Source: Dehalococcoidia bacterium (lineage in GTDB: Bacteria; Chloroflexota; Dehalococcoidia; Lucifugimonadales; Australimonadaceae). Taken from it: a DNA stretch of 64,000 bases. Each line of letters starts with the position of its first letter. The first letter of the stretch is position 1. The stretch is from NCBI GenBank assembly GCA_965248455.1, contig OZ252105.1:200993-264992 (forward strand). The letters run 5' to 3'. Shown in pieces: positions 30,200-45,882 of the stretch. The notes below the pieces were generated by a model. The model ran no database searches, was not told the DNA's origin, and saw only the letters and a program-made list of their open reading frames with translations. The translations under genes were made by a program, and so were the position numbers.

Positions 30200-30323
30200 G
30201 GCGCTAAGGTGAGTGAACGGACGAGTATGCTCCCCCGCCTGCGAGGCGGGCCGGGGCTGAGCTTCTATCCCTTGGTTCCGAACGTCGAATGCTTGGCATG
30301 GCGGCGTGATTGGAGCGGATGCG

Positions 30324-32363
30324 ATGCTGGGTGATTTTGCAGACGGACTCGCTTATCTGGGCACCGTTAGCTACTGGGGGGCGTTCCTGTTGGCCGTATT
30401 CATCACCGTGCCGATTGCCCTGATACCGGGCATCTCGGCCACGCTGGTGATGGCCATCATGATTCCGTTCATCGTTATCCAAGTGGACGATCCGGTGATT
30501 GGCTTGGTTATGCTGGCGACGCTCACCGGCATCGACAATACACTGGATTCCATCCCCTCGATTCTCCTGGGGATGCCAGGCGGCGCGACGCAGGTAACGT
30601 TCCTCGAAGGGAATCAGTTAGCCCAGAGAGGGCAGGCTGCGCATACGTTGGGCGCCGTCTACGCCGTTTCAGCCATTGGCGGGGTTGTCGGCGCGTTGTC
30701 ACTTGCCATCATTATCCCCGTCATCTCACCGTTCGTACTGGCGTTCGGTTTCGCGGAGATCGGCGCGATGGCCTTGTTCGGCGTCGCGATGGTGGCGGCA
30801 TTGAGCGGCGGCGCGATGATCAAGGGAATCGCTGCTGCCATTGTCGGGATGCTGCTCAGCACCGTCGGCCCTGCCGGTCTCGACTTCCGTTATTCGTTCG
30901 ACCAGCAGTGGTTGATGTGGACCGGATTCCCGCTTATCGCGACGACCATCGGCGTGTTCGCGCTGCCGGAGATCATCGACCTCACCATGACGCGCAAACC
31001 TCTCGCGCCTCCGAATGCGAAGATCAGCTACAACGAGATATTCAGCGGCGCGAGGTATGGCTTCAAGCGATGGCCCATAGCCATCCGCCAGTCGCTCTTC
31101 GGCGTCTTCCTGGGCGCAGTGCCCGGCATCGGCAGCGGTGTCGTGGACTGGATGTCCTACGCCTTCGGCATCTTCTGGACGAAGGACAAGAGCCAGTTCG
31201 GCAAAGGATCGCTGGACGGCGTGTTGTTCGCGGAATCGGCGCAGAACGCGAAAGAAGGCGGCCAGGCGGTGCCAACGTTGGCATTGGGCATCCCGGGCGG
31301 ACGCGCATGGGCTTTCGTCATCGTCGCCATGCTGTCATACGGCATCGCGCCAGGCCCCCGGATGCTGGAGGAGCATGCCGACATCACCATCATGATCATC
31401 CTGAGCCTCGGGCTAGGAAACCTCATGGTGACGATGCTCGGCATGGGCTTCACGCGGCAGATGGCGCGTCTCACCCTGATTCCGTACCCCGTCCTCGGTT
31501 TCCTCATCATTCCCATCTCGCTCCTGGCTGCGTTCCAGGACACGCGGGATGTGAGCGCGATCGCTATCGTACTGGGCGGCGCGGCGCTGGGCATGCTCAT
31601 GAAGCGCTACCGCTGGCCGAGGCCCCCGCTGCTCATCGGGTTCATTCTGGGGTCGATCATCGAGAAGAACATCACGGACTCGGTGGCACGATACGACTGG
31701 GTGGGGACGTTTACGCGTCCGTTGTTCATCATCCTGGTGATACTGGCAATCGCGATAGCAGCGCTGTTCACGAAATTCATGAGCGGCGGAACGAACACCT
31801 CTCCGGTGGAGGGCGTTCCGATTCCACCGGCGGGTGAATCGCAGGACGCGCCGGTTCGCCGTTCCTCACGGTTCAGCAACATGCGATGGCGTTGGCGTGA
31901 AGAACAGATATTCACCCTGACCGCCATACTGGTGATGGGCTACGTTATCTGGGAAGCGCAGTTCTTCTCATTCTTCGGGCGATGGTTCCCCATGAGCCTC
32001 GGCATAGTCGGGCTCGTCCTCGTGATCGCGCAGTTCATCCGTGAAGGCCTTGGCGCCAAGACGGGCGACATCATGGATATCGGCATCCGCAGCAGAGGAA
32101 TGGAGGGCGCGCGATCCGCAGGGCTCATCTTCCTCGGTTTGCTGTTAGGCATGCTGGTCATAGCGGGTCTCATCGACGAGGGGTTGAAGTGGGGAGCGAT
32201 AGTGATTGCGCTCCTTGGACCGCCTCTCATCATGCAGAACCGCACCGGCGTGATTGGCGGTATCCTCGCGGCGACGTTGCTTCTGAATCTGAATGTGTGG
32301 TTCTTCGATTACCTGCTTGCCGTGATCTGGCCGAATGCCTTCATCCTTCGCTGGTTCAGCTAG
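30324..32363 (+). CDS. tctA: TctA-family permease with a C-terminal 4-TM TctB-like extension
   Basis: 679 aa versus about 500 for TctA alone. After a polar linker (…GESQDAPVRRSSRFSNMRW…) come four more hydrophobic helices. No separate tctB ORF. Confidence 0.75.
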   Translation: MLGDFADGLAYLGTVSYWGAFLLAVFITVPIALIPGISATLVMAIMIPFIVIQVDDPVIGLVMLATLTGIDNTLDSIPSILLGMPGGATQVTFLEGNQLAQRGQAAHTLGAVYAVSAIGGVVGALSLAIIIPVISPFVLAFGFAEIGAMALFGVAMVAALSGGAMIKGIAAAIVGMLLSTVGPAGLDFRYSFDQQWLMWTGFPLIATTIGVFALPEIIDLTMTRKPLAPPNAKISYNEIFSGARYGFKRWPIAIRQSLFGVFLGAVPGIGSGVVDWMSYAFGIFWTKDKSQFGKGSLDGVLFAESAQNAKEGGQAVPTLALGIPGGRAWAFVIVAMLSYGIAPGPRMLEEHADITIMIILSLGLGNLMVTMLGMGFTRQMARLTLIPYPVLGFLIIPISLLAAFQDTRDVSAIAIVLGGAALGMLMKRYRWPRPPLLIGFILGSIIEKNITDSVARYDWVGTFTRPLFIILVILAIAIAALFTKFMSGGTNTSPVEGVPIPPAGESQDAPVRRSSRFSNMRWRWREEQIFTLTAILVMGYVIWEAQFFSFFGRWFPMSLGIVGLVLVIAQFIREGLGAKTGDIMDIGIRSRGMEGARSAGLIFLGLLLGMLVIAGLIDEGLKWGAIVIALLGPPLIMQNRTGVIGGILAATLLLNLNVWFFDYLLAVIWPNAFILRWFS

Positions 32364-32814: not shown

Positions 32815-32864
32815 CACTTGGCCGCCGTGGCAGAAGGTCGGCGGTGGCGCGCGATGGGTGACGA

Positions 32865-33326
32865 ATGAGAATTACCATGAAGCTGGCGCTGGCTGCATTC
32901 GTAGTGGGGCTGGTAGCTGCGCTGGTCGGCTGGGTGTGGCTCGGCGAGGTGGGGGAACTGAAATCGCGCACGGAACGCTCGGTTGCCACCTACCAGGACG
33001 GGATGCTGATCTACACGACGCTCGCCGGAACAGAGGCCACGATTCCGGTGTGGGACGAGTGCAAGAATCTGGGCCCGCGTCCTGCGAACGAGTGCATTGC
33101 GTACTACGAGAACGGCGATGAAGTAGTCATTACGTACGATTCGGCAGAGCCCACGCACGCGTGGCGTGGCCCGACGCCTAACGGCGTGCCAGCAACCGGG
33201 TTGTTCTGGGGCGGCATCGCGCTGGGGATATTCGCGCTGTTCGGAATCTGGTTCACGTCGTCGTGGTACCGGCGACTCAGCCGCCCCACCATCGCAGGGC
33301 AGGGCGCTCCTCCTGTGGAGGATTAG
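32865..33326 (+). CDS. hypothetical membrane protein (DUF3592-like topology)
   Basis: N-terminal TM, soluble middle part, C-terminal TM (LFWGGIALGIFALFGIWF). Confidence 0.45.
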   Translation: MRITMKLALAAFVVGLVAALVGWVWLGEVGELKSRTERSVATYQDGMLIYTTLAGTEATIPVWDECKNLGPRPANECIAYYENGDEVVITYDSAEPTHAWRGPTPNGVPATGLFWGGIALGIFALFGIWFTSSWYRRLSRPTIAGQGAPPVED

Positions 33327-34885
33327 TCCAGCACCTCCGCCGTCTGCTTCTCGATCTCAGGGAAGAGCAGCGACTTCACCACGACAGGGACGACGCGCGC
33401 CGGGTAGATCATCTCCCCGATGTCTATGTAATCGAACTCCTGCAGGAACAGGTTGTCTATGGAGATGACCGGGTTCGTGATGCCAATGTCCTTCGTGATG
33501 GTTTCGCCGATGAGCTTGGCGAAATCGCCCGTGAACACCAGCATCAGCGGCGACCCGTTCGCCAGCGACCGGGGCATCGCCGCAACGATGCCGTCCGCGA
33601 TCTTCCGTATCTGCGAGTAGCGGGGCAGACCATCCCAATCGAAAGCGAGCGCCACCTGCTGCCCTCCCTCGGTGAGGTCCTGACGCTCGAACGCCTGGTT
33701 GACCAGTGCGGCAACCTCCTCCGGCTGCACTTCGTGATCCTCCGACAGCTTCGAGATGAGCACCGGCACGTTCCGGTACGGCAGAAGCGACGTGTCGGAG
33801 ATGGAGAGCGTGTTGCCGCTCAACTGAACCGTGAATTGCGATGCACCTATCACCGTAGCCCTGATGCGCTCCGTCGCGGGCTGTACGGGCGCGGGAAGGG
33901 CGTTCTCGGCCATCTTACGGCTCACTGCGTCGGCCAACGCCATGGCCAGATCGCCGAAGTCTTTGGTCTCGTTACCGTAGATGTACTCCGAGACGCCGCC
34001 GGAGAAGACGAGAGCGTCGTAGGCCATGTCGGCTGGCATATCGGGCGTCAGGAGCAGCGCCTGCGTCAGTTCGGAGCGCGGACGGCCCTGGATGACGTCG
34101 ATGATGACTTCTCCGAGCGCGTCAGCGATAGCGATCCTGCTCTGATCCGACAGCGGTTCGCCGAAGCTCAGGGGAACGCTGATGGCGTCGGCGGTGGTGT
34201 GCGCCGCTTCCTCGACGCGCGTGATGCTGCCGTCAGCGCCGGTGGCGACGAGCCTGCCGCCGACGTTGACCGTGGCGGTCTGCGCGACGCGTCCGTCCTT
34301 GACCAGTGCGAATTTCGTCGTGCCCCCTCCGATGTCCACGTTGAGCACCGTCTGATGCGGATTGCGCGAGAGCTTCACCGCGCCGGAGCCGTTCGCTGCC
34401 AGCACCGATTCCAGGTTGTGGCCGGCTGAGGCGCACACGAACTTGCCCGCGTGATCGGCGAAGATGTCGGCTATGGCGTGAGCGTTGCGACGCTTGATCG
34501 CCTCGCCGGTGAGGATGATAGCTCCGCTGTCGATGTCCTGCGCCTGAAATCCCGCCTCTGCGTAGGAGTCAGCGATGAACCCTTCGAGGAGTTGTGTGTT
34601 GATGAGGTTGTCGTGCGTGTACGGCGTCAGCAGGATGGGCGACTTGTAGAGCGTCTGCCGGTCGACGACGACGTACCTGCTCGAGTGCATCTCCTGCACG
34701 CGCTGCAGCGTGATGTTGGAGAACATCAGGTGCGAGGTTGACGACCCGATGTCTATCCCGACGGTCTTGAGTTCGATGACCTCGTGATGGTAGTAGTCGT
34801 GGTCCGGGTTGTTCAGCTCGATAGAGAGCTTCGCCAGCCGCTCTTCGTCGGGATCGTGGGCATGCGCCCAGGGCTCATCGTGCAT
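33323..34885 (-). CDS. EutA-like ASKHA-superfamily ATPase, copy 1
   Basis: 520 aa. VGIDIGSSTSH and NVDIGGGTTKF phosphate-binding motifs. His/Asp-rich N-terminus MHDEPWAHAHDPDEE. Confidence 0.8.
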   Translation of the reverse strand: MHDEPWAHAHDPDEERLAKLSIELNNPDHDYYHHEVIELKTVGIDIGSSTSHLMFSNITLQRVQEMHSSRYVVVDRQTLYKSPILLTPYTHDNLINTQLLEGFIADSYAEAGFQAQDIDSGAIILTGEAIKRRNAHAIADIFADHAGKFVCASAGHNLESVLAANGSGAVKLSRNPHQTVLNVDIGGGTTKFALVKDGRVAQTATVNVGGRLVATGADGSITRVEEAAHTTADAISVPLSFGEPLSDQSRIAIADALGEVIIDVIQGRPRSELTQALLLTPDMPADMAYDALVFSGGVSEYIYGNETKDFGDLAMALADAVSRKMAENALPAPVQPATERIRATVIGASQFTVQLSGNTLSISDTSLLPYRNVPVLISKLSEDHEVQPEEVAALVNQAFERQDLTEGGQQVALAFDWDGLPRYSQIRKIADGIVAAMPRSLANGSPLMLVFTGDFAKLIGETITKDIGITNPVISIDNLFLQEFDYIDIGEMIYPARVVPVVVKSLLFPEIEKQTAEVLD

Positions 34886-34984
34886 CGTGTGCGTTCCTTT
34901 CCGTATTCCGATTGCGTTTCGGGACGCACGGGGCTGGCGCGCGTTGAACGCACGTCAGTTCCCACCGGCGCTGCGCGCCCGCTG

Positions 34985-36079
34985 TTAGTGGTCAGCGACG
35001 CCTGTGTAGTCCCATTGATAGTTGACGTCGCGGTATGCCCCGTCCGGCATCCCGCACGGGATGTCGCGCTTGGCGAGCTCCTCCTCGAACATCTGCCGGA
35101 TCCACGGCTCCTCGTTCGGGTATTCGATCTGGTCTTCGGACAGATTCTGCACCTGCTCCGACATGCCCATGAACTGGTTGGGCGGATGGAGCGCGAGGTA
35201 GCGCCCGTGGGTCGCGCCCAGGTTGAAATGCTGATGGAACCAACGGTCGGGGGGAACGAAGCAACTGGCCTCGTGCCACGGCACCACGACCTTCTCCTTG
35301 CCTTCCTGCCACATGATCGAATAGCCCTCGCCGCCGGGGATGACGATGACGCGCCCCGGCCCGTGGCGGTGGCCCTTCTTGTAGGTGCCGGTAGGGAAGA
35401 CGGACATGTGCGCATGCAGCTCCGACCCCGGAATCTGCATGTAGACCGACCGGTTGACGGAGCCTCGCCCTGGCCGGTGCATCAGCTTGTCCCAGACGCC
35501 CATGTCAGGGAAGAAGTTGCCGAACCAGAGGGTGCGCCCGGCGGCCCCTTCCGCGACGTGTTCCTGTGTCGTCGCCTCGGCTTCGGAGTAGAACTCCTGG
35601 CCGCTGAGCACGTCCTCCTCGAACGGGTTGTTGAAGAAGAAGGCGGGGTTCGGAATCGCGGACATCGCGATGGGCAGGTAGTTGTAGTGCAGCAGCCGCA
35701 CCGGACGGTCGCCGTGCATATTGTTGAACTGCGCCCACGAGTTGCGGGGGATGAGGAAGAGCGAGCGCGGAGACCACTCGAACGTGTGGCGCTCGCTGCC
35801 TTCGCTGCTCCAAACGACGGTTGTGCCCTGACCGCTCAGCACGTAGACCATCTCGTCTATCGCCTGCTTGAAGGGTTTGAGCGTACCGCCGGGCGGAATC
35901 TCCTGCACGCGCCCCTCCACGACGCCGGGCATACCCTCCAGCTGGATGAACGCAGCATCGCACTCGCGGAGGCTCCATGGTCCGACTTCCACGTTGCGGA
36001 GGTCTTCGAGGTAGTAACCCCGATGCACAGGGACGCCTTGCTCATTCATCCATCGGTCGTAGGTGAAATCGTTGGCCAT
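34985..36079 (-). CDS. bicupin protein, copy 1 (unknown function)
   Basis: 364 aa with two cupin barrels. The C-terminal barrel has LHAHM, KKGHRHGPG and WFHQHFN. GGAGGAG RBS. Confidence 0.8.
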   Translation of the reverse strand: MANDFTYDRWMNEQGVPVHRGYYLEDLRNVEVGPWSLRECDAAFIQLEGMPGVVEGRVQEIPPGGTLKPFKQAIDEMVYVLSGQGTTVVWSSEGSERHTFEWSPRSLFLIPRNSWAQFNNMHGDRPVRLLHYNYLPIAMSAIPNPAFFFNNPFEEDVLSGQEFYSEAEATTQEHVAEGAAGRTLWFGNFFPDMGVWDKLMHRPGRGSVNRSVYMQIPGSELHAHMSVFPTGTYKKGHRHGPGRVIVIPGGEGYSIMWQEGKEKVVVPWHEASCFVPPDRWFHQHFNLGATHGRYLALHPPNQFMGMSEQVQNLSEDQIEYPNEEPWIRQMFEEELAKRDIPCGMPDGAYRDVNYQWDYTGVADH

Positions 36080-36205: not shown

Positions 36206-37855
36206 GTGAGCAGCATATTGAACAGATCGCATAGCCCCATTTATACCACCCGAGGCATCGTTGGCTCGGCTTCTCCGCTCGCAGGAGCGGCGGGCGCGCA
36301 CGTTCTGCGCGAGGGCGGCAACGCCTTCGACGCCGCCATCGCAGTGGCCGCCGCGGAGGCCGTCACGCTTCCCATGATGTGCGGCATCGGCGGTGAAGTG
36401 TTCGCGCTTCTCTACCATGCGGCCTCCGGCAAGATATACGGCATCTCCGGCTCAGGGAAGGCTTCCCTCAGCGCGACACGCGACTATTTCGTGAGCCGGG
36501 GGTACGTGAAGATGCCGGCGGACGGTCCACTTACCCCTGCCGTGCCCGGCGAGGTACACGCCTGGCAGACGATCCTCGACAACTTCGGGTCGAGGACGCT
36601 CGCGCAGCTCATCGAGCCGGCCATCACGCTTGCGACCGATGGCTTCTCGTTGCCTCCGCGCTCGGCCAGCTACTTCACGGATCACTACACGAAGCTCTCC
36701 AAGTACCCCACGACGGCCAAGGTATTCATCAAACCGGACGGCTCGCCGTACCTGTTGGGCGACGTGTTCGCGCAGCCCGCTCTGGCTCGCTCCCTCCGCC
36801 GGGTAGCGGACGGCGGCCCGGACGAGTTCTACCGAGGCGCGCTTGGCAAGGAGATTGCGCAGGGCATCGCCGACGGCGGAGGGCTCATCGACGAGGACGA
36901 CCTTGCGCAGCACGAGACGCTCTTCTATGACGACCCGCCTTCCGTGGGCTACCACGGGCATACGGTGTACGCAACGGGCCTACCGTCCCAGGGAGCGCTG
37001 ACGCTCGAACTGTTGAGCCTTCTCGATGGGTTCGACCTCGCCGCGCTTGGCCACAACACGGCGGAGTGCATTCATACCATGGTAGAGGCGAAGCGTCTCG
37101 CGTTTGCCGACCGCCTCGCCTACATAGGCGACCCTGAATTCGTGCGCGTGCCGCTCGATGAACTGCTCTCTCCTGAATACGCCGCGCGCCGCCGGTCGCT
37201 CATCGACCCTGAACGGGCAGCGGGAAGCATCGTTCGCGCGGGCGAGCTGGCGCATTCCGTGTCGCCCTCACCGACTACGTCGTATTTCAACGTCATCGAC
37301 AGCGAGGGCAATGCCGTCTCGTTCATCCACAGCCTTTCGATGTACTTCGGTAGCGGGTTCGTTGCAGGCGACACCGGCGTTCTGCTGAACGACCGCGTGG
37401 GCCGCGGCTTCTCCCTCGAAGAAGGACACGTCAACGTCGTTGCTCCGGGGAAGAAGACGATCAACACGATTCACTCCTACATGGTGTTTCAGGACGGCAA
37501 ACCCGTGCTCGTCGGCGGTACGCCTGGCGGGGACAATCAGCCTCAGTGGAACGCGCAGGCTATCTCCAACGTCATCGATCACGGGATGGACGTGCAGCAG
37601 GCCGCCGATGCTCCGCGATGGACGCACTTCCCCGGAACGGATCCGCGCTCCATCGACCAGGAGATGGCGCTGCGGATGGAAGACGGCTTCAGCGAGGAGG
37701 TCACACGCAGCCTCGCAGCGAAAGGCCACAACGTCGCCGGCTATCCCACGGTGGGTACGCCGGGCGCGGTTCAACTCATCGCGATAGATCATGAACGGGG
37801 CGTTCGCACCGGCGGCACGGACCGCCGTTCGGACGGCTACCCCACACCGGAGTAA
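36206..37855 (+). CDS. ggt: gamma-glutamyltransferase family protein
   Basis: GIVGSASPLAGAAGAHVLREGGNAFDAAIAV and later the GGTPGGDNQPQ motif. GTG 36206 after GAGGTG. The upstream part of the 1023-aa ORF is antisense to the bicupin gene. Confidence 0.85.
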   Translation: MSSILNRSHSPIYTTRGIVGSASPLAGAAGAHVLREGGNAFDAAIAVAAAEAVTLPMMCGIGGEVFALLYHAASGKIYGISGSGKASLSATRDYFVSRGYVKMPADGPLTPAVPGEVHAWQTILDNFGSRTLAQLIEPAITLATDGFSLPPRSASYFTDHYTKLSKYPTTAKVFIKPDGSPYLLGDVFAQPALARSLRRVADGGPDEFYRGALGKEIAQGIADGGGLIDEDDLAQHETLFYDDPPSVGYHGHTVYATGLPSQGALTLELLSLLDGFDLAALGHNTAECIHTMVEAKRLAFADRLAYIGDPEFVRVPLDELLSPEYAARRRSLIDPERAAGSIVRAGELAHSVSPSPTTSYFNVIDSEGNAVSFIHSLSMYFGSGFVAGDTGVLLNDRVGRGFSLEEGHVNVVAPGKKTINTIHSYMVFQDGKPVLVGGTPGGDNQPQWNAQAISNVIDHGMDVQQAADAPRWTHFPGTDPRSIDQEMALRMEDGFSEEVTRSLAAKGHNVAGYPTVGTPGAVQLIAIDHERGVRTGGTDRRSDGYPTPE

Positions 37856-37859
37856 CGAC

Positions 37860-38783
37860 ATGCCCATCACGCTCATGGCGGATCATGAATACGCCGCCGA
37901 ATACCTCGCGAACGGCTCTATCAAGGTCGAAGGATTCGACGTCGAGACGGTCTGGCCGGAGGGAGGCTCAGCGTCCGTCTACGCCAAACTGTTCACGGAA
38001 CCTCCCTACGATGTGATGGTGGTGCCCATCACGAACTTCCTCATCGCGGTTGACCTCGGCAGGCCGTTGGCGGGCATCCCCGTGTTCCCGGACGTGTCGT
38101 TTGCGCACACCGGCGCGCAGGTGAATACGAACGCCGGTATCACGAGCCCCAAGGATCTCGAAGGCAAGCGCGTCGGTGTTCGCGGGTGGGGCTTCAACCC
38201 TGGGACATGGCTGCGAGGCGCGCTCGCGGATGTCTACGGCCTCGACGCTACACGGGTGCATTGGGTGGAGGCGGAGCCCAACTCACTGATGAACGCGGAC
38301 TACCCCCGCGATTCCCGGTTCAGCGTCTCCAAGGGCGGCGACCAGATCGCGGAGCTGGAGAGCGGCGCGTTGGACGCGGTGCTGTTCGACCGCTCCGGCC
38401 CGCCGCTCGCAGGAAACCGCGCCCGGCTGTTCGACGACCCTTTGGCCGCAGCGCTGGAATATCACGCGCAGACGAGCGTGCTGCCGGTGAACGTGATGCT
38501 GGTGGCGAAGCGGGATGTGCTCGATGCGAACCCCGGCCTCGCACAGGCGGTCGTCGAGGCGTCGGACAAAGCGCGTGAAGCGTATTACGCCCACGCTTCC
38601 GACGACGATGAGCATATGGGCTTGCCCATCGGCTGGCTGCGGCAGCACGGCCTGTTCCCGCACGAGAACGGGTTGGAGCGCAACCGCAACGCCATCGAGA
38701 CCATCGTCCGCTACGCGGCAGACCTCGGCCTCATCAGCCGTCGCTTTACGCCGGAGGAGCTGTTCTTCGACGGCGTGCGTTAG
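37860..38783 (+). CDS. 4,5-dihydroxyphthalate decarboxylase-like (PBP-fold) protein, copy 1
   Basis: IPVFPDVSFAHTG…GITSPKDLEGKRVGV pattern is shared with copy 2 (57360-58337) and with my recollection of PhtD/Pht5-type decarboxylases. Confidence 0.65.
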   Translation: MPITLMADHEYAAEYLANGSIKVEGFDVETVWPEGGSASVYAKLFTEPPYDVMVVPITNFLIAVDLGRPLAGIPVFPDVSFAHTGAQVNTNAGITSPKDLEGKRVGVRGWGFNPGTWLRGALADVYGLDATRVHWVEAEPNSLMNADYPRDSRFSVSKGGDQIAELESGALDAVLFDRSGPPLAGNRARLFDDPLAAALEYHAQTSVLPVNVMLVAKRDVLDANPGLAQAVVEASDKAREAYYAHASDDDEHMGLPIGWLRQHGLFPHENGLERNRNAIETIVRYAADLGLISRRFTPEELFFDGVR

Positions 38784-40808: not shown

Positions 40809-42125
40809 CTACGCATCGCGGACGGCTGCGACTCCGGCGCGGAATGCTTCGATGGTGCGCTCGATGTCCTCGTCGGTGTGGCAGACGCCGACGTACAGCT
40901 TGCCGGAGGGCTTGAAGACGCCGTGCTCCAGCAGCGTGTTGTCGAATATGCGGTTGAGCGTCTTGTCCACCAGCGTGGAGCGGTAGTCGACGATGGGTTG
41001 CTCGGTGAAGTAGACATCGAACATCACGTCGACGCCGCTCACGACCGCAGGAACCTCCGCCTCGTCGAAGAGGCGTTGGAGCGTGTTGCGGAGCCTTGCA
41101 GCGCGCTCGTGGTACGCCCCGTACGTCCCGGGTACGCTCAGGACATCCAGCGTTGCGAGGCCTGCCGCCGCCGCGACCGGGTTGCCGTTCAGCGTGCCTG
41201 TCTGCGGCACGTAGCGGTCAGCGGGCGCAGTGCGAGGGTCGTACGCTTCCAGCAGGTCGCGCCGTCCAACGACCGCTGCCAGGGGGAAGCCGCCCCCCAC
41301 GATCTTGCCGATGGCCGCGATGTCCGGCACGACGCCGTAGTGTTCCTGCGCGCCGCCGTAGGCGAGGCGGAAGCTCGTGACGACCTCGTCGAAGATGAGC
41401 AGAACGCCGTAGCGCTCCGTCAGCGTGCGCAGTCCGGCGAGGAATCCCGGCTGCGGTGCGATGACGCGCTGCACCGGCTCCACGATGACCGCCGCGAGTT
41501 CGTCGTGGTACCGGTCGAGCAGGTCCTCCACCATGTTGAGGTCGTTGAATGGCGCGACAAGCACCGTCTCCTGGACGGCCTTGGGTATGCCCGCGGAGCT
41601 CGGTTCACCGTGAGGGAACTCCGTCTTCCCGGAAGGCGACAGGCTCATCAGTGAGTAGTCGTGCATCCCGTGGAAGCCGCCCTCGAATTTGAGGATCTTC
41701 TCCCGTTTGCGGAACGAACGCGCGATCTTCAACGCGTTGTAGGTCGCCTCGGTGCCGGTGCTGACGAAGCGCACCTGCTCCGCGCACGGCATCGCTTCGA
41801 TGATGCGCTCGGCCAGTGCGATAGCGTACTCGTTCTGCGTGAAGAACGTCGTGCCCTTGGCCATCGCCGCGCTTGCGGCTTCGATGACCTTGGGGTGGGC
41901 ATGGCCAAGCACCATCGGCCCCGACCCCAGCAGATAGTCGATGTAGGAGTTGCCGCTCATGTCGCTGATGTGCGACCCGTGGCCCTCGCGTACGACGAAC
42001 GCATAATCGTCATCGAGCCGCAGGTTCCCGAGCGTACCGCCGGGCAGCGCGCGCGCCGCTCTCGCGAGCATCTCTCGTTCTTCAGGTGTCCTGTTCAAGC
42101 GTGACAAGGGGCAACTCCTCTCCAT
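40809..42125 (-). CDS. class III aminotransferase / glutamate-1-semialdehyde aminomutase-like
   Basis: LPGGTLGN…YIDYLLGSGPMVLGHAHP…FVSTGTEAT…FDEVVTSFR motifs. Start uncertain. Confidence 0.8.
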   Translation of the reverse strand: MERSCPLSRLNRTPEEREMLARAARALPGGTLGNLRLDDDYAFVVREGHGSHISDMSGNSYIDYLLGSGPMVLGHAHPKVIEAASAAMAKGTTFFTQNEYAIALAERIIEAMPCAEQVRFVSTGTEATYNALKIARSFRKREKILKFEGGFHGMHDYSLMSLSPSGKTEFPHGEPSSAGIPKAVQETVLVAPFNDLNMVEDLLDRYHDELAAVIVEPVQRVIAPQPGFLAGLRTLTERYGVLLIFDEVVTSFRLAYGGAQEHYGVVPDIAAIGKIVGGGFPLAAVVGRRDLLEAYDPRTAPADRYVPQTGTLNGNPVAAAAGLATLDVLSVPGTYGAYHERAARLRNTLQRLFDEAEVPAVVSGVDVMFDVYFTEQPIVDYRSTLVDKTLNRIFDNTLLEHGVFKPSGKLYVGVCHTDEDIERTIEAFRAGVAAVRDA

Positions 42126-42364
42126 CGTCTATCGTTGAATCGTCCGGTCGATTCTGCCATGCGCGCCGACGCGTTGCTACTGCCGGGGCGCTGTCCTCCG
42201 AACGATCAGGCGCGAGATGGGGCTGTGGCCTTCCAAGGCGCTGGCGTTGTGATAGGCTTTCGGTTGGCGTCGGTTCGTTGCCGAGGCGCGCGGCTGGCGG
42301 CAGTAGAGGTTGGGCGTGCAAACGCGCCTACCTTGAAAATCTTGTGAATACGCGGAGGGAGAGC

Positions 42365-43099
42365 ATGGCAATAAAGGAAGTTGCGGAAGTCAGCGCTGGG
42401 GGAGACCCGATGCCGGTTCATACGGCACGTCCGGATGGCGACGGGAAGAGCCCGGCAGTCATCGTGATTCAGGAGGTATTCGGCGTCAACAACCACATGA
42501 AGAGCATCGTTGATCGCTTTGCCGCCGAGGGCTACTTCGCCGCTGCGCCCGAGCTGTTCCACCGCTCCGGCGCGGGCACAGAGGTTGCGTTCACGGACAT
42601 GGAGCGCGCGTTCGCCGAGCGGGGCAAGCTGTCCATGGAGGACATCAACGCCGACGTGCAGGCGACGATAGACTACCTGCGCAGCAACCCGAACGTGGAC
42701 GCCGACAACATCGGCATCGTTGGCTTCTGCTTCGGCGGCATGGTGTCGTACCTCGGCGCGACCATGGACGGTATCAAGGCGGCAGCCGTGTACTACGGCG
42801 GAGGCATCCTGCCGCGACCGGACGCAGCGGAAGGCACGCCGCGTCTCCTCGACCAGACCGCCGACAGCGTGCAGGCGCCGATCATCGGCTTCTGGGGCGA
42901 TCAGGACGGCGGCATACCCGTCTCCAACGTCGACGCCATCGAGGCCACGTTGAAGGAGAAGGGCAAGTCCATCGAGAACCACGTCTACGAGGGCGCGGGG
43001 CACGGCTTCTTCTGCGACGAGCGCGGCAGCTACAACGAGGCCGCTTCGAACGACGCATGGCCCAAGACGCTCGCGTTCTTCGGTGCGAACCTCAAGTAA
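42365..43099 (+). CDS. dienelactone hydrolase family protein
   Basis: AVIVIQEVFGVNNHMK and GIVGFCFGG nucleophile elbow. GGAGGGAG RBS before ATG 42365. Confidence 0.85.
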   Translation: MAIKEVAEVSAGGDPMPVHTARPDGDGKSPAVIVIQEVFGVNNHMKSIVDRFAAEGYFAAAPELFHRSGAGTEVAFTDMERAFAERGKLSMEDINADVQATIDYLRSNPNVDADNIGIVGFCFGGMVSYLGATMDGIKAAAVYYGGGILPRPDAAEGTPRLLDQTADSVQAPIIGFWGDQDGGIPVSNVDAIEATLKEKGKSIENHVYEGAGHGFFCDERGSYNEAASNDAWPKTLAFFGANLK

Positions 43100-43215: not shown

Positions 43216-44736
43216 TCAACCCGACTGTGAGCGTAAGGAAAAGACGAGCGACTTGACCGTTACGGGGATAACCTCCGACGCGCCCATAGGCTTGCCGATG
43301 TCCACGTAGTCAAGGTCGCCGACCTCAATGCCGTCTATGGCGATGATAGCGCGATTGAAGTTCAACTCCTCACGGATGATGCCGCCGAGCGATTTGGCGA
43401 CGTCCACGTCAACGACGAGGAAAACGGGTGCTTCGGGCGGCTCGTCGGCGACCGTCTTGATGATCGACTCAGCAAGGCGGCGGATGTACCAGTAATCGGG
43501 TTGGCCGGCGATGGACATGGCGAGGACCATCGAGGAGGGCAGCCTGTCCATGTCGTACTTACCGACGCCTGCTGCGAGCGCGGCCTCCATCTCCTCCGCG
43601 CTTTGCTCCTTATTGATGAAGGCGCGTGCCACCTGTACGCCCCGGACGGGGAGCACGTCAGCGGTTGCGATGTAACTCGTGCTGCCGCTGGCCTGCAGCG
43701 TGTACTCGCCCGCGCCGATGACCGTAGCGCGGATGCCCTCCGCAGGGGTGATGAGCACGCCGGGCCGGAATGTTCCCATGGAGCGCTCGCGGACGATTCT
43801 GCCGAACCAAGGGCCTACGTCTCCGTACGACTCGCTCGTACGGTCGTAGACGTACTCCGAGACGCCGCCTGAATAGACGATATGGTCGATGTCGTGCAGG
43901 GACGATACGCGCAGGCCGTCGGTCAGCAGAAGGGACTCGGTAAGTGGGTCCACGTCGCCGCCGCTGATGACGTCGAACAGGATGTCGGTCATCCTGGCAA
44001 CGAATTGATCGCGCTGGGCCTCGGTCAGCTTGCCGCCGACCGCGACCTCGTGGCCGAGCGTCTTCATGATGGTGCGCGCGGGCTGTTCGACCCGCGTGAT
44101 CGTCATATCGTCGTCGTAGGCGATGAGCCGCGCGCCGATCTCGACCACCACCATCTGGGAGATCTCGCCGCCTTGGATGAGCGATATCTTGGTCGTTCCG
44201 CCGCCCATGTCTATGTCGAGCACGGAATTGGAGTGGCTCTTGGAGATGGCGACTGCGCCCGACCCGAAGGCCGCGAGGAGCGCCTCGTGCATCGGCCCTG
44301 CAGACGCGCAGATGAACCCGCCGGACTTTTCGGAGAAGTACTCCAGGATGGGCTGAGCGTTCTCCTTCTTGAGCGCCTCGCCCGTGATGACGACTGCGCC
44401 CGTATCGATGTCGCCCGGGGTGAACCCGGCCTCGCTATAGGACTCCTCGATGAACTGCTGCACGCTGTCCGTGTCGATGGCCGTGTTGGAGGAGTACGGC
44501 GTGAGCATGATGGGGGAGCGGTAGAGCACGTCACGGTTGGTGACGACGAACTTCGCCGACAGCCCCGCCCCCTCGCGCCGCAGGATGAGCCTGGAGAAGA
44601 TGGTGTGTGTGGTGGAGGAGCCTATATCAATGCCCACGCTGTGCAACGTGAACTTCTCGATTCCCTCGATGTCCTCGGCATCCTCGCTGTAGAGGAGGTC
44701 GAGGGCGTGTCCGTGATCGTGATCGTCGTCGTGCAT
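43216..44736 (-). CDS. EutA-like ASKHA-superfamily ATPase, copy 2
   Basis: 506 aa. VGIDIGSSTTH and DIDMGGGTTKI. His/Asp-rich N-terminus MHDDDHDHGHALD. Confidence 0.8.
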   Translation of the reverse strand: MHDDDHDHGHALDLLYSEDAEDIEGIEKFTLHSVGIDIGSSTTHTIFSRLILRREGAGLSAKFVVTNRDVLYRSPIMLTPYSSNTAIDTDSVQQFIEESYSEAGFTPGDIDTGAVVITGEALKKENAQPILEYFSEKSGGFICASAGPMHEALLAAFGSGAVAISKSHSNSVLDIDMGGGTTKISLIQGGEISQMVVVEIGARLIAYDDDMTITRVEQPARTIMKTLGHEVAVGGKLTEAQRDQFVARMTDILFDVISGGDVDPLTESLLLTDGLRVSSLHDIDHIVYSGGVSEYVYDRTSESYGDVGPWFGRIVRERSMGTFRPGVLITPAEGIRATVIGAGEYTLQASGSTSYIATADVLPVRGVQVARAFINKEQSAEEMEAALAAGVGKYDMDRLPSSMVLAMSIAGQPDYWYIRRLAESIIKTVADEPPEAPVFLVVDVDVAKSLGGIIREELNFNRAIIAIDGIEVGDLDYVDIGKPMGASEVIPVTVKSLVFSLRSQSG

Positions 44737-44781
44737 CCGTCAGTTATCCCTCAATGTTGATGTAGTGTCTGGCGGGGCGGG

Positions 44782-45882
44782 TCAGGCTTTCGCGGCCTCG
44801 TAGTTCCATTCGTACGCGTGGTTCTTGTAGGCCTCGTCCGGAATCTCGGAGGTCATGCCGCGCTCGGCCAGCTGACCCTCGAAGTATTCGCGTATCCACG
44901 GATCCTCGTCGGGGTACTCGATCTGGTCGCGTCCGCGGTCTTCTACCTTCTCGCTCATGCCCATGAACTGGTTGGGTGGATGGAGCGCGAGATAGCGTCC
45001 GTCCGCCTTGCCCAGGTTGAAGTGCTGATGGAACCAGCGGTCGGGCGGAACGAAGCAACTGGCCTCGCGCCAGTGGATAACGACCTTCTCCTGGCCTTCC
45101 TCCCACATGACGGAGTAGCCCTCGCCGCCGGGGATGACGATGACGCGTCCCGGGCCGTGGCGATGGCCCTTCTTATACGTTTTCGCGGGGAAGACGGACA
45201 TGTGCGCGTGCATCTCCGAGCCGGGGGATTGGATGAACACCACGTGCCCACCTGCGCCCCGTCCCCAGAAAGGCACGAGCTTGTCCCAGGCGGCCATGTC
45301 GGGGAAGAAGTTGCCGTGCCATACCTGGCGCCCGCGTCCGGCGAAAGCGCCCTCGCCCGCTTCCATGATGGCCTTTGCCTCGGAGTAGAACTCGTCGGTG
45401 CTGTGCAGGAAGCTACTCTCGGAGTAGGGGTTGTTGAAGAAGAATTCCGGGTCGGGCGTGGCGGACATCGCGATAGGCAGGTAGTTGTAATGGAGGAGCC
45501 GCGCGGGATTCTGGCCGTCCATGTTCGTGAGTTGGCAGTGCGAATTGCGCGGGATGAGGAAGAGGCTGCGCGTCGCCCACTCGAACGTCTTCTTGGGTCG
45601 TGAGTCGTCCGTCCATACGGTGGCGACGCCGCGCCCGCCGAGGACGTAGACCTGCTCGTCGACCGCGAGTTTCAGCGGCGGGAGCGTGCGGCCGGGCGGA
45701 ATCTCCTCGATGCGCCCCTCGACGACGCCTTCCATGCCTCGCAACTGCATGAACGCTGCATCGACCTGGCGGTCCTCCCACCAGCCGAGTTCAACGGTGC
45801 GCAGGTCTTCCACGTAGTAGCCCCGGTGAACGGGTATCCCCTGTGCTTCCATCCAGTCGTCATACGTGAAACGTCGTGCCAT
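44782..45882 (-). CDS. bicupin protein, copy 2
   Basis: 366 aa, collinear with 34985-36079. Same MHAHM, KKGHRHGPG and WFHQHFN motifs. Confidence 0.8.
   Translation of the reverse strand: MARRFTYDDWMEAQGIPVHRGYYVEDLRTVELGWWEDRQVDAAFMQLRGMEGVVEGRIEEIPPGRTLPPLKLAVDEQVYVLGGRGVATVWTDDSRPKKTFEWATRSLFLIPRNSHCQLTNMDGQNPARLLHYNYLPIAMSATPDPEFFFNNPYSESSFLHSTDEFYSEAKAIMEAGEGAFAGRGRQVWHGNFFPDMAAWDKLVPFWGRGAGGHVVFIQSPGSEMHAHMSVFPAKTYKKGHRHGPGRVIVIPGGEGYSVMWEEGQEKVVIHWREASCFVPPDRWFHQHFNLGKADGRYLALHPPNQFMGMSEKVEDRGRDQIEYPDEDPWIREYFEGQLAERGMTSEIPDEAYKNHAYEWNYEAAKA

What the first reader, a model, noticed from the sequence alone, without database searches (positions are those of the whole stretch)
33323..36079. 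Bicupin + EutA-like ATPase two-gene module with no B12 lyase partner (copy 1)
On the minus strand a 364-aa two-cupin protein (34985-36079) is followed 99 nt downstream by a 520-aa protein (33323-34885). The second protein has ASKHA phosphate motifs (VGIDIGSSTSH, NVDIGGGTTKF), and its size resembles EutA, the reactivase of B12-dependent ethanolamine ammonia-lyase. No EutB/EutC, diol dehydratase, aminomutase, cobalamin or microcompartment gene occurs anywhere in the 64 kb. The same gene order recurs at 43216-45882. Only the C-terminal cupin keeps His-rich candidate metal ligands (LHAHM, KKGHRHGPG, WFHQHFN). I know of no characterised cupin enzyme that needs an EutA-type partner. Working hypothesis: an ATP-dependent activation, repair or metallation chaperone dedicated to a cupin (di)oxygenase or isomerase acting on an aromatic-catabolic intermediate.
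Basis: partly seen in the sequence, partly recalled or inferred. Interest (0 to 1): 0.8.

Follow-up and report, generated by a model that had tools for sequence, protein, structure and literature searches.

The report
His-tailed EutA-like ATPase paired with bicupin
Two copies of a widespread, uncharacterised gene pair sit in this window: a divergent gentisate-dioxygenase-like metal enzyme and a relative of the vitamin-B12-enzyme repair ATPase EutA that has no B12 enzyme nearby but has gained a histidine-rich tail, which suggests an unfamiliar kind of ATP-driven helper that loads or repairs the enzyme's metal site.

Summary
Both pairs, bicupin then EutA-family ATPase, exist at the stated coordinates as self-contained two-gene units. 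The window holds no B12 lyase, cobalamin, microcompartment or riboswitch element.

- **Pairing from the bicupin side:** about 30 of 79 genome loci across about eight phyla carry an adjacent EutA-like gene.
- **Pairing from the EutA-like side:** 37 of 45 metagenome loci with enough flank carry an adjacent bicupin, even at 32-37% bicupin identity.
- **No eut genes:** EutB, EutC and shell proteins gave zero hits in 166 loci. Four genuine EutA genes all sit beside eutBC.
- **New finding:** the cupin-linked clade keeps the ASKHA ATPase motifs but has an N-terminal M-H-[DE]-x(3-5)-H-x-H tail (at least 3 His in 116 of 123; poly-His in Micromonospora). Genuine EutA lacks it.
- **The bicupin:** a remote gentisate-dioxygenase relative whose N-terminal Fe site is degenerate. 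Four C-terminal His are invariant in 160 sequences.
- **Context:** Rieske oxygenases, a 4,5-dihydroxyphthalate-decarboxylase homologue and TTT transporters point to aromatic-carboxylate catabolism.

Best reading, inferred and untested: an ATP-driven metal-site maturase or reactivase for a cupin oxygenase. No literature describes it, and databases probably misname the ATPase as EutA.

The parts
34985..36079 (-). Bicupin 1 (364 aa), a divergent gentisate-dioxygenase-superfamily bicupin and the putative metalloenzyme client
   Evidence: ORF, translation. AF2 model pLDDT 86.8, pTM 0.89, two beta-barrel cupins. Only a generic bicupin fold match in PDB, TM about 0.45. hhalign to the window's GDO: probability 87.8%, E 3e-6, colinear. 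More than 4400 homologues.
35222..35410 (-). C-terminal cupin His cluster of bicupin 1 (residues 224-286: H224, Y233-K-K, H237-R-H239, H282-Q-H284, N286), the predicted metal site
   Evidence: H237, H239, H282 and H284 are 100% invariant and H224 is 99% invariant in 160 bicupins down to 28% identity. They align with the HRH...W.H.H motifs of GDO.
34886..34984 (-). 99-nt spacer between bicupin 1 and EutA-like 1, with a Shine-Dalgarno-like GGAAAGGA site before the ATG
   Evidence: Sequence read; no Rfam hit.
33323..34885 (-). EutA-like ATPase 1 (520 aa), ASKHA fold, cupin-linked clade
   Evidence: PF06277 E 9e-127, residues 38-508. Below the NCBIfam EutA cut-offs (349 bits against at least 598). 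34% identical to E. coli EutA. AF2 pLDDT 75.9. Foldseek gives ASKHA ATPases only.
34763..34885 (-). N-terminal extension of EutA-like 1 (residues 1-41, MHDEPWAHAHDPDEE...DHDYYHH), a His/Asp-rich tail absent from genuine EutA
   Evidence: Alignment A3 against E. coli EutA. H2, H8 and H10 invariant in A4. At least 3 His in 116 of 123 clade members. Predicted disordered.
34730..34762 (-). Phosphate-1 motif VGIDIGSSTSH (residues 42-52) of EutA-like 1
   Evidence: D45 and G47 are invariant and shared with genuine EutA.
34310..34342 (-). Phosphate-2 motif NVDIGGGTTKF (residues 182-192) of EutA-like 1; K191 is clade-specific (Asn in genuine EutA)
44782..45882 (-). Bicupin 2 (366 aa), a paralogue 64% identical to bicupin 1 with the same His cluster
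43216..44736 (-). EutA-like ATPase 2 (506 aa), only 37% identical to copy 1, so the module duplicated or was acquired as a unit
   Evidence: PF06277 E 1e-124. Identity figures.
44638..44736 (-). His/Asp-rich tail of EutA-like 2 (MHDDDHDHGHALD...). The start is fixed by an in-frame TGA two codons upstream.
37791..38783 (+). Context: signal-peptide-less PBP-fold protein of the 4,5-dihydroxyphthalate decarboxylase family, the third most frequent neighbour of the module elsewhere
   Evidence: Pfam NMT1. 25% identity, E 3e-23, to cluster mc7, which matches PDB 9jp7 4,5-dihydroxyphthalate decarboxylase at E 4e-64. mc7 is present in 26 EutA-seeded loci.
30306..32363 (+). Context: TctA-type tripartite tricarboxylate transporter permease. 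TTT components recur near the module in soil metagenomes and in Phyllobacterium.
42086..43099 (+). Context: dienelactone hydrolase, convergent with copy 2. The synteny is conserved in related Dehalococcoidia MAGs.

Best explanation
The pair is a conserved two-gene module. The bicupin is a remote relative of gentisate/salicylate 1,2-dioxygenases. It has lost the usual N-terminal Fe site and carries its metal centre (invariant H237, H239, H282, plus H284 and H224) in the C-terminal cupin. It most likely acts as an O2-dependent enzyme on a hydroxylated aromatic carboxylate produced by neighbouring Rieske oxygenases and non-oxidative decarboxylases. The partner descends from the EutA reactivase. 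It has kept the ASKHA nucleotide-binding core and been re-targeted from the B12 lyase to the bicupin. The proposed mechanism is as follows. Its disordered N-terminal H-x(5)-H-x-H tail captures a divalent metal (Fe(II), or possibly Ni or Co). ATP binding and hydrolysis drive a conformational change that opens the bicupin, so the metal is inserted or an oxidised or wrong metal is exchanged. EutA does the analogous job when it expels damaged cobalamin from ethanolamine ammonia-lyase.

Shown here: gene structure, family assignment, conservation and co-inheritance of the pair, absence of eut genes, the clade-specific His tail, and the invariant His cluster.

Inferred: physical interaction, metal binding by the tail, ATP dependence, identity of the metal and of the substrate.
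For: 1. Adjacency and co-orientation are conserved. 37 of 45 EutA-like metagenome loci with enough flank have a bicupin, 39 of 58 immediately upstream on the same strand. About 30 of 79 bicupin loci have an EutA-like gene.
2. The pair persists when the bicupin is only 32-37% identical to the window's.
3. Partner distance matrices correlate (r = 0.82, Mantel p <= 0.001), and within-genome duplicates have both partners diverged.
4. Both window copies are bicistronic and flanked by convergent genes.
5. The ATPase core is retained: 54 of 112 clade-conserved positions are shared with four eutBC-linked EutAs, including the phosphate-1, phosphate-2 and adenosine motifs.
6. The tail is gained. M-H-[DE]...H-x-H is found in 114-116 of 123 members across all subclades and in 115 of 118 database hits. 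Micromonospora has a 19-His tail. All four genuine EutAs lack it, and tblastn alignments to canonical EutA start at residue 38-41.
7. Four His are 100% invariant in 160 bicupins, and divergent partnered clades add further His at positions 244, 251 and 270.
8. One ATPase gene can serve one or two flanking bicupin genes, and tandem double modules exist. This fits an accessory factor better than a stoichiometric catalytic subunit.
9. Precedent for NTPase maturases of non-haem Fe or Co enzymes: the nitrile hydratase activator Nha3 (PMC11672702).
10. The only characterised activity of the EutA family is ATP-dependent cofactor exchange on a partner enzyme (own knowledge: Mori et al. 2004, J Bacteriol).
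Against: - There is no experimental or structural evidence of interaction.
- About half of the bicupin paralogues (45 orphan against 40 partnered in the unbiased set) have identical His ligands but no adjacent EutA-like gene. The site does not obviously require a neighbour-encoded helper, although at least three genomes carry both orphans and modules.
- Characterised 3-His Fe(II) cupin dioxygenases load metal without a chaperone (own knowledge).
- All known nucleotide-dependent metallochaperones are P-loop G3E NTPases, not ASKHA proteins.
- No metal transporter or metal-sensing regulator recurs next to the module.
- 7 of 123 members lack a His-rich tail.
- The tail is modelled with low confidence.
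Confidence: 0.45

Rival explanations
1. The EutA-like protein is a catalytic partner rather than a helper. It would be an ATP-dependent enzyme that phosphorylates or otherwise activates the substrate or an intermediate, as ASKHA kinases, hydantoinase/oxoprolinase-type ATPases or Ppx/GppA phosphatases do. The bicupin would then transform that product.
For: ASKHA proteins include many kinases and phosphatases. There are weak Pfam hits to Hydantoinase_A and Ppx-GppA, and Foldseek top hits include exopolyphosphatases. Clade-specific substitutions lie near the nucleotide site: K191 in the phosphate-2 motif, and C151. The two genes are tightly co-transcribed.
Against: No EutA-family member is known to act on small molecules (own knowledge). 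The full-length PF06277 match, including the C-terminal non-ASKHA domain, is retained. A His/Asp-rich disordered tail is not a feature of ASKHA kinases. The variable stoichiometry of bicupin genes per ATPase gene, and the many orphan bicupins, argue against an obligatory two-step reaction.
Confidence: 0.2
2. The ATPase is a reactivase in the strict EutA sense but unrelated to metal delivery. It would pry open the bicupin to release a tightly bound dead-end ligand or suicide adduct, or remodel its oligomer. The His-rich tail would serve only for docking into or sensing the bicupin's metal site.
For: This stays closest to the ancestral EutA activity (own knowledge). Ring-cleaving dioxygenases are prone to mechanism-based inactivation, and a dedicated reactivating protein exists for catechol 2,3-dioxygenase (the XylT ferredoxin; own knowledge). 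All the conservation evidence fits equally well.
Against: The recurrent three-His pattern, and the poly-His expansion in Micromonospora, are more typical of metal storage or delivery than of docking. Nothing in the data separates this reading from metal exchange, because inactivation of Fe(II) enzymes usually is metal oxidation or loss.
Confidence: 0.2
3. It is a genuine EutA that services a B12-dependent ethanolamine ammonia-lyase, or another B12 enzyme, encoded elsewhere in the genome. The cupin adjacency would be incidental.
For: Full-length EutA Pfam match. Sources annotate these proteins as 'ethanolamine ammonia-lyase reactivating factor EutA'. Only 64 kb of the genome is visible.
Against: There are 0 EutB/C/shell/EutT hits in the window and 166 loci. 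All four reference EutAs are adjacent to eutBC. The proteins fall below all four NCBIfam EutA equivalog cut-offs. The clade has its own residues and tail. Bicupin adjacency is 82% from the EutA side, and there is no cobalamin riboswitch.
Confidence: 0.03
4. The EutA-like protein is an 'archerase'-type redox activator, like the 2-hydroxyacyl-CoA dehydratase activator HgdC. It would use ATP to inject a low-potential electron that re-reduces the bicupin metal.
For: The top Foldseek hit is HgdC, 1hux. There is a weak BcrAD_BadFG Pfam hit. Reactivation of Fe(III) to Fe(II) would be chemically sensible.
Against: HgdC-type activators hold a [4Fe-4S] cluster between two subunits using two Cys per monomer (own knowledge). 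Only one Cys (C151) is conserved in this clade. The Foldseek similarity is generic ASKHA (TM 0.3-0.55, 12% identity).
Confidence: 0.05

Closest known systems
EutA, ethanolamine ammonia-lyase reactivase (E. coli b2451 and Salmonella; Pfam PF06277)
   Same: Same Pfam family over the full length, 33-35% identity, same ASKHA phosphate-1, phosphate-2 and adenosine motifs and the same C-terminal domain. It is encoded next to the enzyme it presumably services.
   Different: It is never linked to eutBC or microcompartment genes. It falls below the NCBIfam equivalog cut-offs. It has a 35-60-residue His/Asp-rich N-terminal tail and clade-specific residues (H2, C151, K191, R223, E225, Q354). The presumed client is a metal cupin rather than a cobalamin enzyme.
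Gentisate and salicylate 1,2-dioxygenases (class III cupin ring-cleaving dioxygenases; GDOsp PDB 3bu7; TIGR02272)
   Same: Bicupin of about 360 aa. It has HRH...W.H.H.N motifs and a colinear profile alignment with the window's own GDO (probability 87.8%). The genomic context is aromatic-acid catabolism.
   Different: No NCBIfam or TIGRFAM GDO hit. The sequence similarity is marginal (PDB profile E 9e-5) and the Foldseek TM is only about 0.44. The N-terminal cupin, which is catalytic in GDO and SDO (own knowledge), has lost its His ligands, and the metal site is in the C-terminal cupin. Canonical GDOs, including the window's 2386-3441, have no EutA-like partner.
Nucleotide-dependent metallochaperones (G3E P-loop GTPases: UreG, HypB, CobW, Fe-nitrile-hydratase activator Nha3) and His-rich Ni chaperones (HypA N-terminal MHE motif, HypB/UreE His tails)
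   Same: It is an NTPase gene adjacent to a metalloenzyme gene, and it has a His-rich flexible metal-binding segment. An M-H-[DE] N-terminus resembles the HypA MHE motif (own knowledge). Nha3 is a precedent for non-haem Fe enzyme maturation (PMC11672702).
   Different: The fold is entirely different, ASKHA rather than P-loop. There is no CxCC motif. Metal binding and transfer are untested.
Diol and glycerol dehydratase reactivases DdrAB and GdrAB
   Same: They are ATP-dependent, Hsp70/ASKHA-like chaperones that open a partner enzyme to exchange a damaged cofactor (own knowledge). This is the same concept proposed here.
   Different: No detectable sequence similarity, and they were not among the top 50 Foldseek hits. 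They are two-subunit factors and are specific to B12 enzymes.
XylT-type ferredoxins that reactivate catechol 2,3-dioxygenase
   Same: A dedicated accessory protein, encoded beside a ring-cleaving dioxygenase, that restores an inactivated Fe centre (own knowledge).
   Different: XylT is a small [2Fe-2S] electron donor with no ATP use, and it is an unrelated protein.

Membership tests
EutA family (Pfam PF06277) | Full-length match to the family HMM above the gathering score | tested here: met
   424.2 and 414.1 bits against a cut-off of 27, covering profile positions 2-474 of 475.
EutA, functional equivalog (ethanolamine ammonia-lyase reactivating factor, NCBIfam NF007991-NF007994) | Score above the curated equivalog cut-off | tested here: not met
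   Best scores are 349 and 360 bits against cut-offs of 598-952.
EutA, functional equivalog | Genomic linkage to eutB/eutC (and usually eut microcompartment genes) | tested here: not met
   0 tblastn hits to EutB/C/L/M/N/T/J/H in the window plus 86 loci and in 80 metagenome loci. All four reference EutAs are eutBC-adjacent.
EutA, functional equivalog | ATP-dependent reactivation of ethanolamine ammonia-lyase by cobalamin exchange | not testable with these tools
   Needs biochemistry.
ASKHA ATPase superfamily | Phosphate-1 (DxGxxT), phosphate-2 (DxGGGT) and adenosine (GG) motifs on an actin-like fold | tested here: met
   D45/G47/T50, D184/G186-188/T189 and G296/G297 are invariant. The AF2 model and Foldseek hits are all ASKHA proteins.
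Gentisate 1,2-dioxygenase family (TIGR02272 / class III cupin dioxygenases) | Match to the family model above cut-off | tested here: not met
   No TIGR02272 hit. There is only a 20.7-bit partial hit to the related MabB model (cut-off 650). The window's other bicupin scores 303.8 bits.
Gentisate 1,2-dioxygenase family | Bicupin fold | tested here: met
   AF2 pLDDT 86.8 with two jelly-roll barrels. Foldseek finds bicupins, including GDOsp 3bu7, at probability 1.0.
Gentisate 1,2-dioxygenase family | 3-His Fe(II) site in the N-terminal cupin | tested here: not met
   hhalign places K.A and (h/a)Q where GDO has HRH and WHDH. The His triad is retained only in the C-terminal cupin.
Gentisate 1,2-dioxygenase family | O2-dependent ring cleavage of a hydroxybenzoate | not testable with these tools
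   Needs an enzyme assay. The context is compatible.
Nucleotide-dependent metallochaperones (G3E P-loop NTPases) | P-loop G3E GTPase fold | tested here: not met
   The fold is ASKHA. The review lists only P-loop G3E and related NTPases.
Nucleotide-dependent metallochaperones (functional class) | Conserved His- or Cys-rich metal-binding segment and a gene adjacent to the client metalloenzyme | tested here: met
   His tail in 116 of 123 members. Bicupin adjacency is 82%.
Nucleotide-dependent metallochaperones (functional class) | Nucleotide-coupled metal binding and transfer to the client | not testable with these tools
   Needs ITC, ICP-MS and activity reconstitution.
HgdC/BcrAD-type [4Fe-4S] ATP-dependent activators | Two conserved Cys per monomer holding an inter-subunit [4Fe-4S] cluster | tested here: not met
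   Only C151 is conserved. The Pfam BcrAD_BadFG hit is below cut-off.

The most novel reading that the evidence does not exclude
The cupin-linked EutA clade would be the first actin-fold (ASKHA) nucleotide-dependent metallochaperone or metal-site reactivase. It would be a B12-enzyme reactivase scaffold that evolved a His-rich metal-carrying tail and was re-targeted to install or exchange the metal of a new family of C-terminal-site bicupin oxygenases. These oxygenases are used by SAR202 and soil bacteria to degrade aromatic polycarboxylates. That would add a second, unrelated protein fold to the known nucleotide-driven metal-insertion machinery. It would also show that some simple mononuclear cupin enzymes need ATP-dependent maturation.
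Probability: 0.35. Interest if true: 0.85.

Novelty: new variant of a known kind. Interest (0 to 1): 0.72.

Why it matters
- **A new accessory-factor type.** If the inference holds, the enzyme-reactivase principle known only for B12 enzymes extends to a mononuclear metal cupin. ASKHA ATPases would join P-loop G3E GTPases as nucleotide-driven metal-centre maturases.
- **A likely annotation error.** Members of this clade examined here are labelled 'ethanolamine ammonia-lyase reactivating factor EutA', for example WP_262291242.1 and the Chloroflexi and Dehalococcoidia MAG proteins. These proteins almost certainly do not service that enzyme, and metabolic reconstructions that infer ethanolamine use from such labels would be wrong.
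- **A new enzyme family.** The bicupin family has 316 clusters at 50% identity with E <= 1e-30, has no close structure, and has an inverted active-domain arrangement relative to gentisate dioxygenases.
- **Ecological relevance.** The family sits in catabolic islands of SAR202 Chloroflexota, a group thought to degrade recalcitrant marine organic matter.
- **Testable now.** The module also occurs in cultivable bacteria (Phyllobacterium zundukense, three Sinorhizobium species, Micromonospora).

Tried and rejected
- **Solved structures for the EutA-like protein.** A PDB sequence search returned nothing, so no EutA-family structure is detectable by sequence and no template-based inference is possible.
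- **Foldseek.** Both models gave only generic fold matches. Model coordinates are not exposed, so metal-site geometry and clustering of clade-specific residues could not be measured.
- **Source contig.** An exact-sequence look-up of the window's bicupin found no record.
- It was redone without that row.
- **atp-operon neighbours.** ATP synthase subunit clusters looked like 'conserved neighbours' of EutA-positive loci. They are lineage synteny within the Binatia and Thermodesulfobacteriota group, not functional partners.
- **orf105 and orf198.** The 105-aa ORF abutting bicupin 2 (45885-46202) and the 198-aa ORF after EutA-like 1 (32562-33158) were considered as third genes and rejected. They are not conserved and lack a coding GC3 signature. 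The conserved gene there is the convergent 32865-33326(+).
- **[4Fe-4S] archerase idea.** Rejected because only one Cys is conserved.
- **Metal-ligand differences between partnered and orphan bicupins.** None was found in the invariant His. Only peripheral positions and extra His in divergent partnered clades differ.
- **Literature.** Searches for EutA with cupin, 'EutA-like', SAR202 with cupin, the full EutA product name with cupin, and EutA, dioxygenase or metallochaperone found nothing on this pairing. The 'EutA' in ectoine papers is an unrelated gene name.
- **Crude gene caller.** A GC3-based gene caller mis-called the copy-1 region because of a 1023-aa shadow ORF. Homology resolved it.

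Full report
**Observation.** Bicupin 1 is 34985-36079(-), 364 aa. EutA-like 1 is 33323-34885(-), 520 aa, 99 nt downstream. Bicupin 2 is 44782-45882(-), 366 aa. EutA-like 2 is 43216-44736(-), 506 aa, 45 nt downstream. All quoted motifs are present. Both EutA-like starts are secure. Copy 1 uses the first start codon after a stop, preceded by GGAAAGGA. Copy 2 has an in-frame TGA two codons upstream of its ATG and a GAGGGA site. A 105-aa ORF abutting bicupin 2 and a 198-aa ORF after EutA-like 1 are not real genes. The conserved flanking genes are convergent: 32865-33326(+) and the dienelactone hydrolase 42086-43099(+). Each copy is therefore a self-contained two-gene unit.

**Family assignment.** Both long proteins match Pfam EutA (PF06277) end to end, with E 9e-127 and 1e-124. 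Other ASKHA families reach only about 1e-5. They fail all four NCBIfam EutA equivalog cut-offs, scoring 349-360 bits against 598-952. They are 33-35% identical to E. coli EutA. No EutA-family structure is detectable in PDB by sequence. The AF2 model (pLDDT 75.9) is an ASKHA fold plus a C-terminal alpha/beta domain. Its closest solved structures are only generic ASKHA proteins: the HgdC activator, Ppx/GppA, PilM, MreB and EutJ.

The bicupins get only sub-threshold Cupin_2 hits. They have more than 4400 homologues at 90% clustering, almost all unnamed. An exhaustive search found 316 representatives at 50% identity with E <= 1e-30. The AF2 model is confident (pLDDT 86.8, pTM 0.89) but has no close solved relative: vicilins, MncA, oxalate decarboxylase and GDOsp all score TM about 0.45.

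**No B12 partner.** Pfam scans of about 50 window ORFs found no B12 lyase, mutase, cobalamin or microcompartment gene. tblastn with E. coli EutB/C/L/M/N/T/J/H (fetched) gave no hit in the window or in 86 related loci, nor in 80 further metagenome loci. Rfam found nothing, so there is no cobalamin riboswitch. By contrast, genuine EutA genes from E. coli, C. difficile, Listeria and the haloarchaeon Natronorubrum all sit beside eutBC.

**Is the pairing conserved?**
- *From the bicupin side* (79 reference-genome loci), an EutA-like gene is adjacent in about 30 loci: 32 by tblastn and 29 by ORF clustering. These include Dehalococcoidia/SAR202, other Chloroflexota, Binatia, Thermodesulfobacteriota, Acidocella and Micromonospora.
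- *From the EutA-like side* (80 metagenome loci), 60 have a bicupin. Among the 45 with at least 1.2 kb on both sides, 37 (82%) do. The bicupin is usually immediately upstream on the same strand (39 of 58 loci with enough upstream flank).
- *Divergence.* The pairing persists where the bicupin is only 32-37% identical to the window's.
- *Cultured rhizobia.* Phyllobacterium zundukense has a 'hypothetical protein' (33% identical to bicupin 1, E 7e-58) directly upstream of an annotated 'EutA'. Three Sinorhizobium megaplasmids also carry EutA-like genes at 43% identity, each with the His tail where checked, but I did not test whether a bicupin is adjacent there.
- *Co-inheritance.* Distance matrices of the two partners correlate (r = 0.82, Mantel p <= 0.001). 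Where one genome holds two modules (the window and L005), both partners have diverged: 37-40% identity for the ATPase and 62-64% for the bicupin. So modules duplicate or transfer as units.
- *Stoichiometry.* 86 ATPase genes have one adjacent bicupin, 8 have two and 31 have none. Bicupin-EutA-bicupin and tandem double modules occur.
- *Orphans.* In the unbiased set, 45 bicupins are orphans against 40 partnered. Partner status is clade-structured: the nearest neighbour has the same status in 92% of cases against 50% expected. At least three genomes carry both an orphan and a module (MPMJ01, JADFQE01, OZ244621).

**New feature: a His-rich tail.** Aligning the clade with E. coli EutA shows an N-terminal extension of about 35-60 residues that genuine EutA lacks. 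It reads M-H-[DE]-x(3-5)-H-x-H. Copy 1 has MHDEPWAHAHD, copy 2 has MHDDDHDHGH, and soil clades have MHDLEFEHLH. H2, H8 and H10 are invariant in a 40-sequence alignment. Of 123 clade members from all loci, 116 have at least 3 His in the tail and 114 have H-x-H. Among database hits, 115 of 118 have H-x-H. The Micromonospora protein begins MSEHHHQGHHHDHGHHHHCHHDDHGHSH. The tail is predicted to be disordered.

The four eutBC-linked EutAs start 3-9 residues before the phosphate-1 motif, and tblastn alignments to canonical EutAs begin at query residue 38-41. The ATPase core is retained: 54 of 112 clade-conserved positions are shared with all four genuine EutAs. The clade has its own signature of C151, K191, R223, E225 and Q354. 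His-rich flexible tails and an N-terminal M-H-E motif are hallmarks of Ni, Co and Zn metallochaperones such as HypA, HypB and UreE (own knowledge). A 2024 review lists only P-loop G3E and related NTPases as nucleotide-dependent metallochaperones, including the Fe-nitrile-hydratase activator Nha3, and never mentions ASKHA proteins in the part of the text that is held.

**The bicupin's site.** In 160 bicupins, down to 28% identity, H237, H239, H282, H284 and E101 are 100% invariant. H224, Y233, K234 and K235 are at least 99% invariant. The motifs K-x-H-R-H ... W-x-H-Q-H-x-N mirror the AHRH ... W-x-W-H-x-H-x-N motifs of gentisate dioxygenase.

Profile comparison with the window's own near-canonical GDO gives 87.8% probability (E 3e-6) and a colinear two-domain alignment. 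That GDO is 2386-3441 and scores 303.8 bits to TIGR02272. In the alignment, the N-terminal HRH/WHDH Fe site of GDO is degenerate in the new family and the C-terminal His set is kept. Divergent partnered clades add further His at positions 244, 251 and 270.

**Pathway context.** The window is a catabolic island holding:
- seven LigXa/phthalate-dioxygenase-type Rieske oxygenases;
- three Gfo/Idh/MocA dehydrogenases;
- an FAA hydrolase plus a canonical GDO;
- a class II aldolase whose best NCBIfam hit is 3,4-dihydroxyphthalate decarboxylase PhtC (117 bits, below the cut-off of 200);
- two PBP-fold proteins;
- MFS and TctA transporters.

Around the divergent modules the most frequent extra neighbour (26 loci) is a signal-peptide-less PBP-fold protein. 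It matches the solved 4,5-dihydroxyphthalate decarboxylase 9jp7 at E 4e-64, and window 37791-38783 belongs to the same family. Next come class II aldolase-fold proteins (20 loci), TctC/TctA, MarR, CMD and aldehyde dehydrogenase. In Acidocella the order is IclR, EutA-like, bicupin, EutA-like, bicupin, unknown, ferredoxin reductase, Rieske oxygenase. In Phyllobacterium the pair lies among two TctABC sets, a TPP enzyme, an SDR, LysR and a class II aldolase. This supports, but does not prove, action on a hydroxylated aromatic (poly)carboxylate.

**Mechanism.** I commit to the following reading, at about 0.45 confidence. The ATPase is an EutA-derived accessory factor. It uses ATP-driven conformational work to insert or exchange the metal at the bicupin's C-terminal His site, and its His tail acts as the metal carrier.
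- *Shown:* gene structure, conservation, co-inheritance, loss of eut linkage, retention of the ATPase motifs, gain of the tail, and the invariant His cluster.
- *Inferred:* interaction, metal binding, ATP coupling, the metal and the substrate.
- *Main counter-evidence:* orphan bicupins have identical ligands. Known 3-His Fe(II) cupins self-load (own knowledge). No ASKHA metallochaperone is known. No metal-homeostasis genes recur near the module.
- *Rivals:* a catalytic ATP-dependent partner (0.2); a non-metal reactivase or remodeller (0.2); an archerase-type reductant (0.05; only one conserved Cys); a true EutA for a distant B12 enzyme (0.03).

**Comparison with known systems and novelty.** The protein is a member of the EutA Pfam family. 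It is not an EutA equivalog, because two defining features were tested and not met: the curated cut-off and eutBC linkage. The bicupin belongs to the GDO superfamily by remote homology but is not a GDO family member: it has no model hit and its N-terminal site is lost. The searchable literature holds nothing on this pairing. I rate it a new variant of a known kind, namely an enzyme reactivase or maturase re-targeted to a new client class. It has a realistic chance (about 0.35) of being the first ASKHA-type nucleotide-dependent metallochaperone. It also exposes a probable systematic mis-annotation of these proteins as ethanolamine ammonia-lyase reactivase.

Noticed in passing
window 1471-3441 (+): An FAA-hydrolase-family gene (1471-2352) is followed by a near-canonical gentisate 1,2-dioxygenase (2386-3441). 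The GDO scores 303.8 bits to TIGR02272 (cut-off 442) and has two strong Cupin_2 domains. This is a classical gentisate-pathway pair with no EutA-like partner, and it served as an internal contrast to the two atypical bicupins.
   Followed up: partly
window 4874-6139, 15334-16662, 20097-21374, 48502-49785, 49853-51130, 52443-53729, 58554-59900: There are seven paralogous Rieske + LigXa_C oxygenases in 64 kb. With them are three Gfo/Idh/MocA oxidoreductases (3509-4768, 18780-20084, 61033-62220), two 4,5-dihydroxyphthalate-decarboxylase-family proteins (37791-38783, 57360-58337) and a PhtC-like class II aldolase (60028-60828). No ferredoxin or reductase gene was recognised near them. This looks like a paralogue-rich phthalate-like aromatic-carboxylate island in a SAR202-type Dehalococcoidia genome.
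   Followed up: partly
window 27143-28495 and 28685-30139 (+): Two tandem paralogous ORFs of 450 and 484 aa have no Pfam hit. They lie just upstream of a long (685 aa) TctA gene. The cluster is conserved in 7 related loci, and an unannotated 453-aa gene sits beside TctA in SAR202 MAG contigs (L080-L082). They may be a novel solute-binding or accessory component of the TTT transporter.
   Followed up: no
window 36.2-42.1 kb: A block conserved in SAR202 MAGs lies next to module 1: gamma-glutamyltranspeptidase, PBP-fold decarboxylase homologue, (AAA_16 ATPase 38893-40092 in the window only), GNAT acetyltransferase, and a class-III aminotransferase (HemL/GSA-aminomutase-like; 394.9 bits against a subfamily cut-off of 398). 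This suggests an amino- or glutamyl-conjugated substrate.
   Followed up: no
window 46081-46572 (-): A NUDIX-domain ORF has atypical codon-position GC (GC3 0.49 against about 0.8 for neighbouring genes) and no orthologue in syntenic loci. It may be a recent acquisition or a decaying gene. It lies next to an OCD/mu-crystallin gene with a roughly 100-residue N-terminal extension (46636-48033).
   Followed up: partly
window 6692-7918 (+), 62855-63793 (+), 25380-25799 (+): Mobile or selfish elements are present in the island: an rve-type integrase (below the Pfam cut-off), an IS110-family transposase and a HicB-like antitoxin.
   Followed up: no
L040, L055, L075 and about 15 other bicupin loci (clusters c6 and c20): 'Orphan' bicupins (no adjacent EutA-like gene) are often next to an ABC transporter. 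It has an SBP_bac_1/6/8/11-type binding protein (checked by Pfam only in L075, a locus that does carry an EutA-like gene) and a fused two-domain permease. I know this architecture from Fe(III)/AfuA-type transporters. 15 of 17 such loci lack EutA-like. It is unclear whether this transporter imports the substrate or a metal.
   Followed up: partly
L068 2466-13355 (Acidocella sp. MAG): A tandem double module lies on one strand: IclR, EutA-like, bicupin, EutA-like, bicupin, 350-aa unknown, ferredoxin reductase, Rieske/LigXa oxygenase. The first EutA-like gene has a variant phosphate-1 motif (VGIDIGSSGT) but still carries the tail (MHERDQDHYHDDDD).
   Followed up: partly
L168 8926-10431 (Phyllobacterium zundukense plasmid, WP_262291242.1) and MAG proteins P0122, P0168, P0176, P0234: Public annotation calls these cupin-linked proteins 'ethanolamine ammonia-lyase reactivating factor EutA', although they fall below the NCBIfam equivalog cut-offs and have no eutBC nearby. 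This is a probable systematic over-annotation. A YjbE/TerC-family 'putative metal transport protein' lies 1.1 kb downstream in L168.
   Followed up: partly
L083/L084 7001-8566; L095: A His-tailed EutA-like gene (P0189) stands alone between gltX and a histidine kinase, with no bicupin within 7 kb. So some clade members are unlinked, perhaps acting in trans on bicupins elsewhere in the genome.
   Followed up: no
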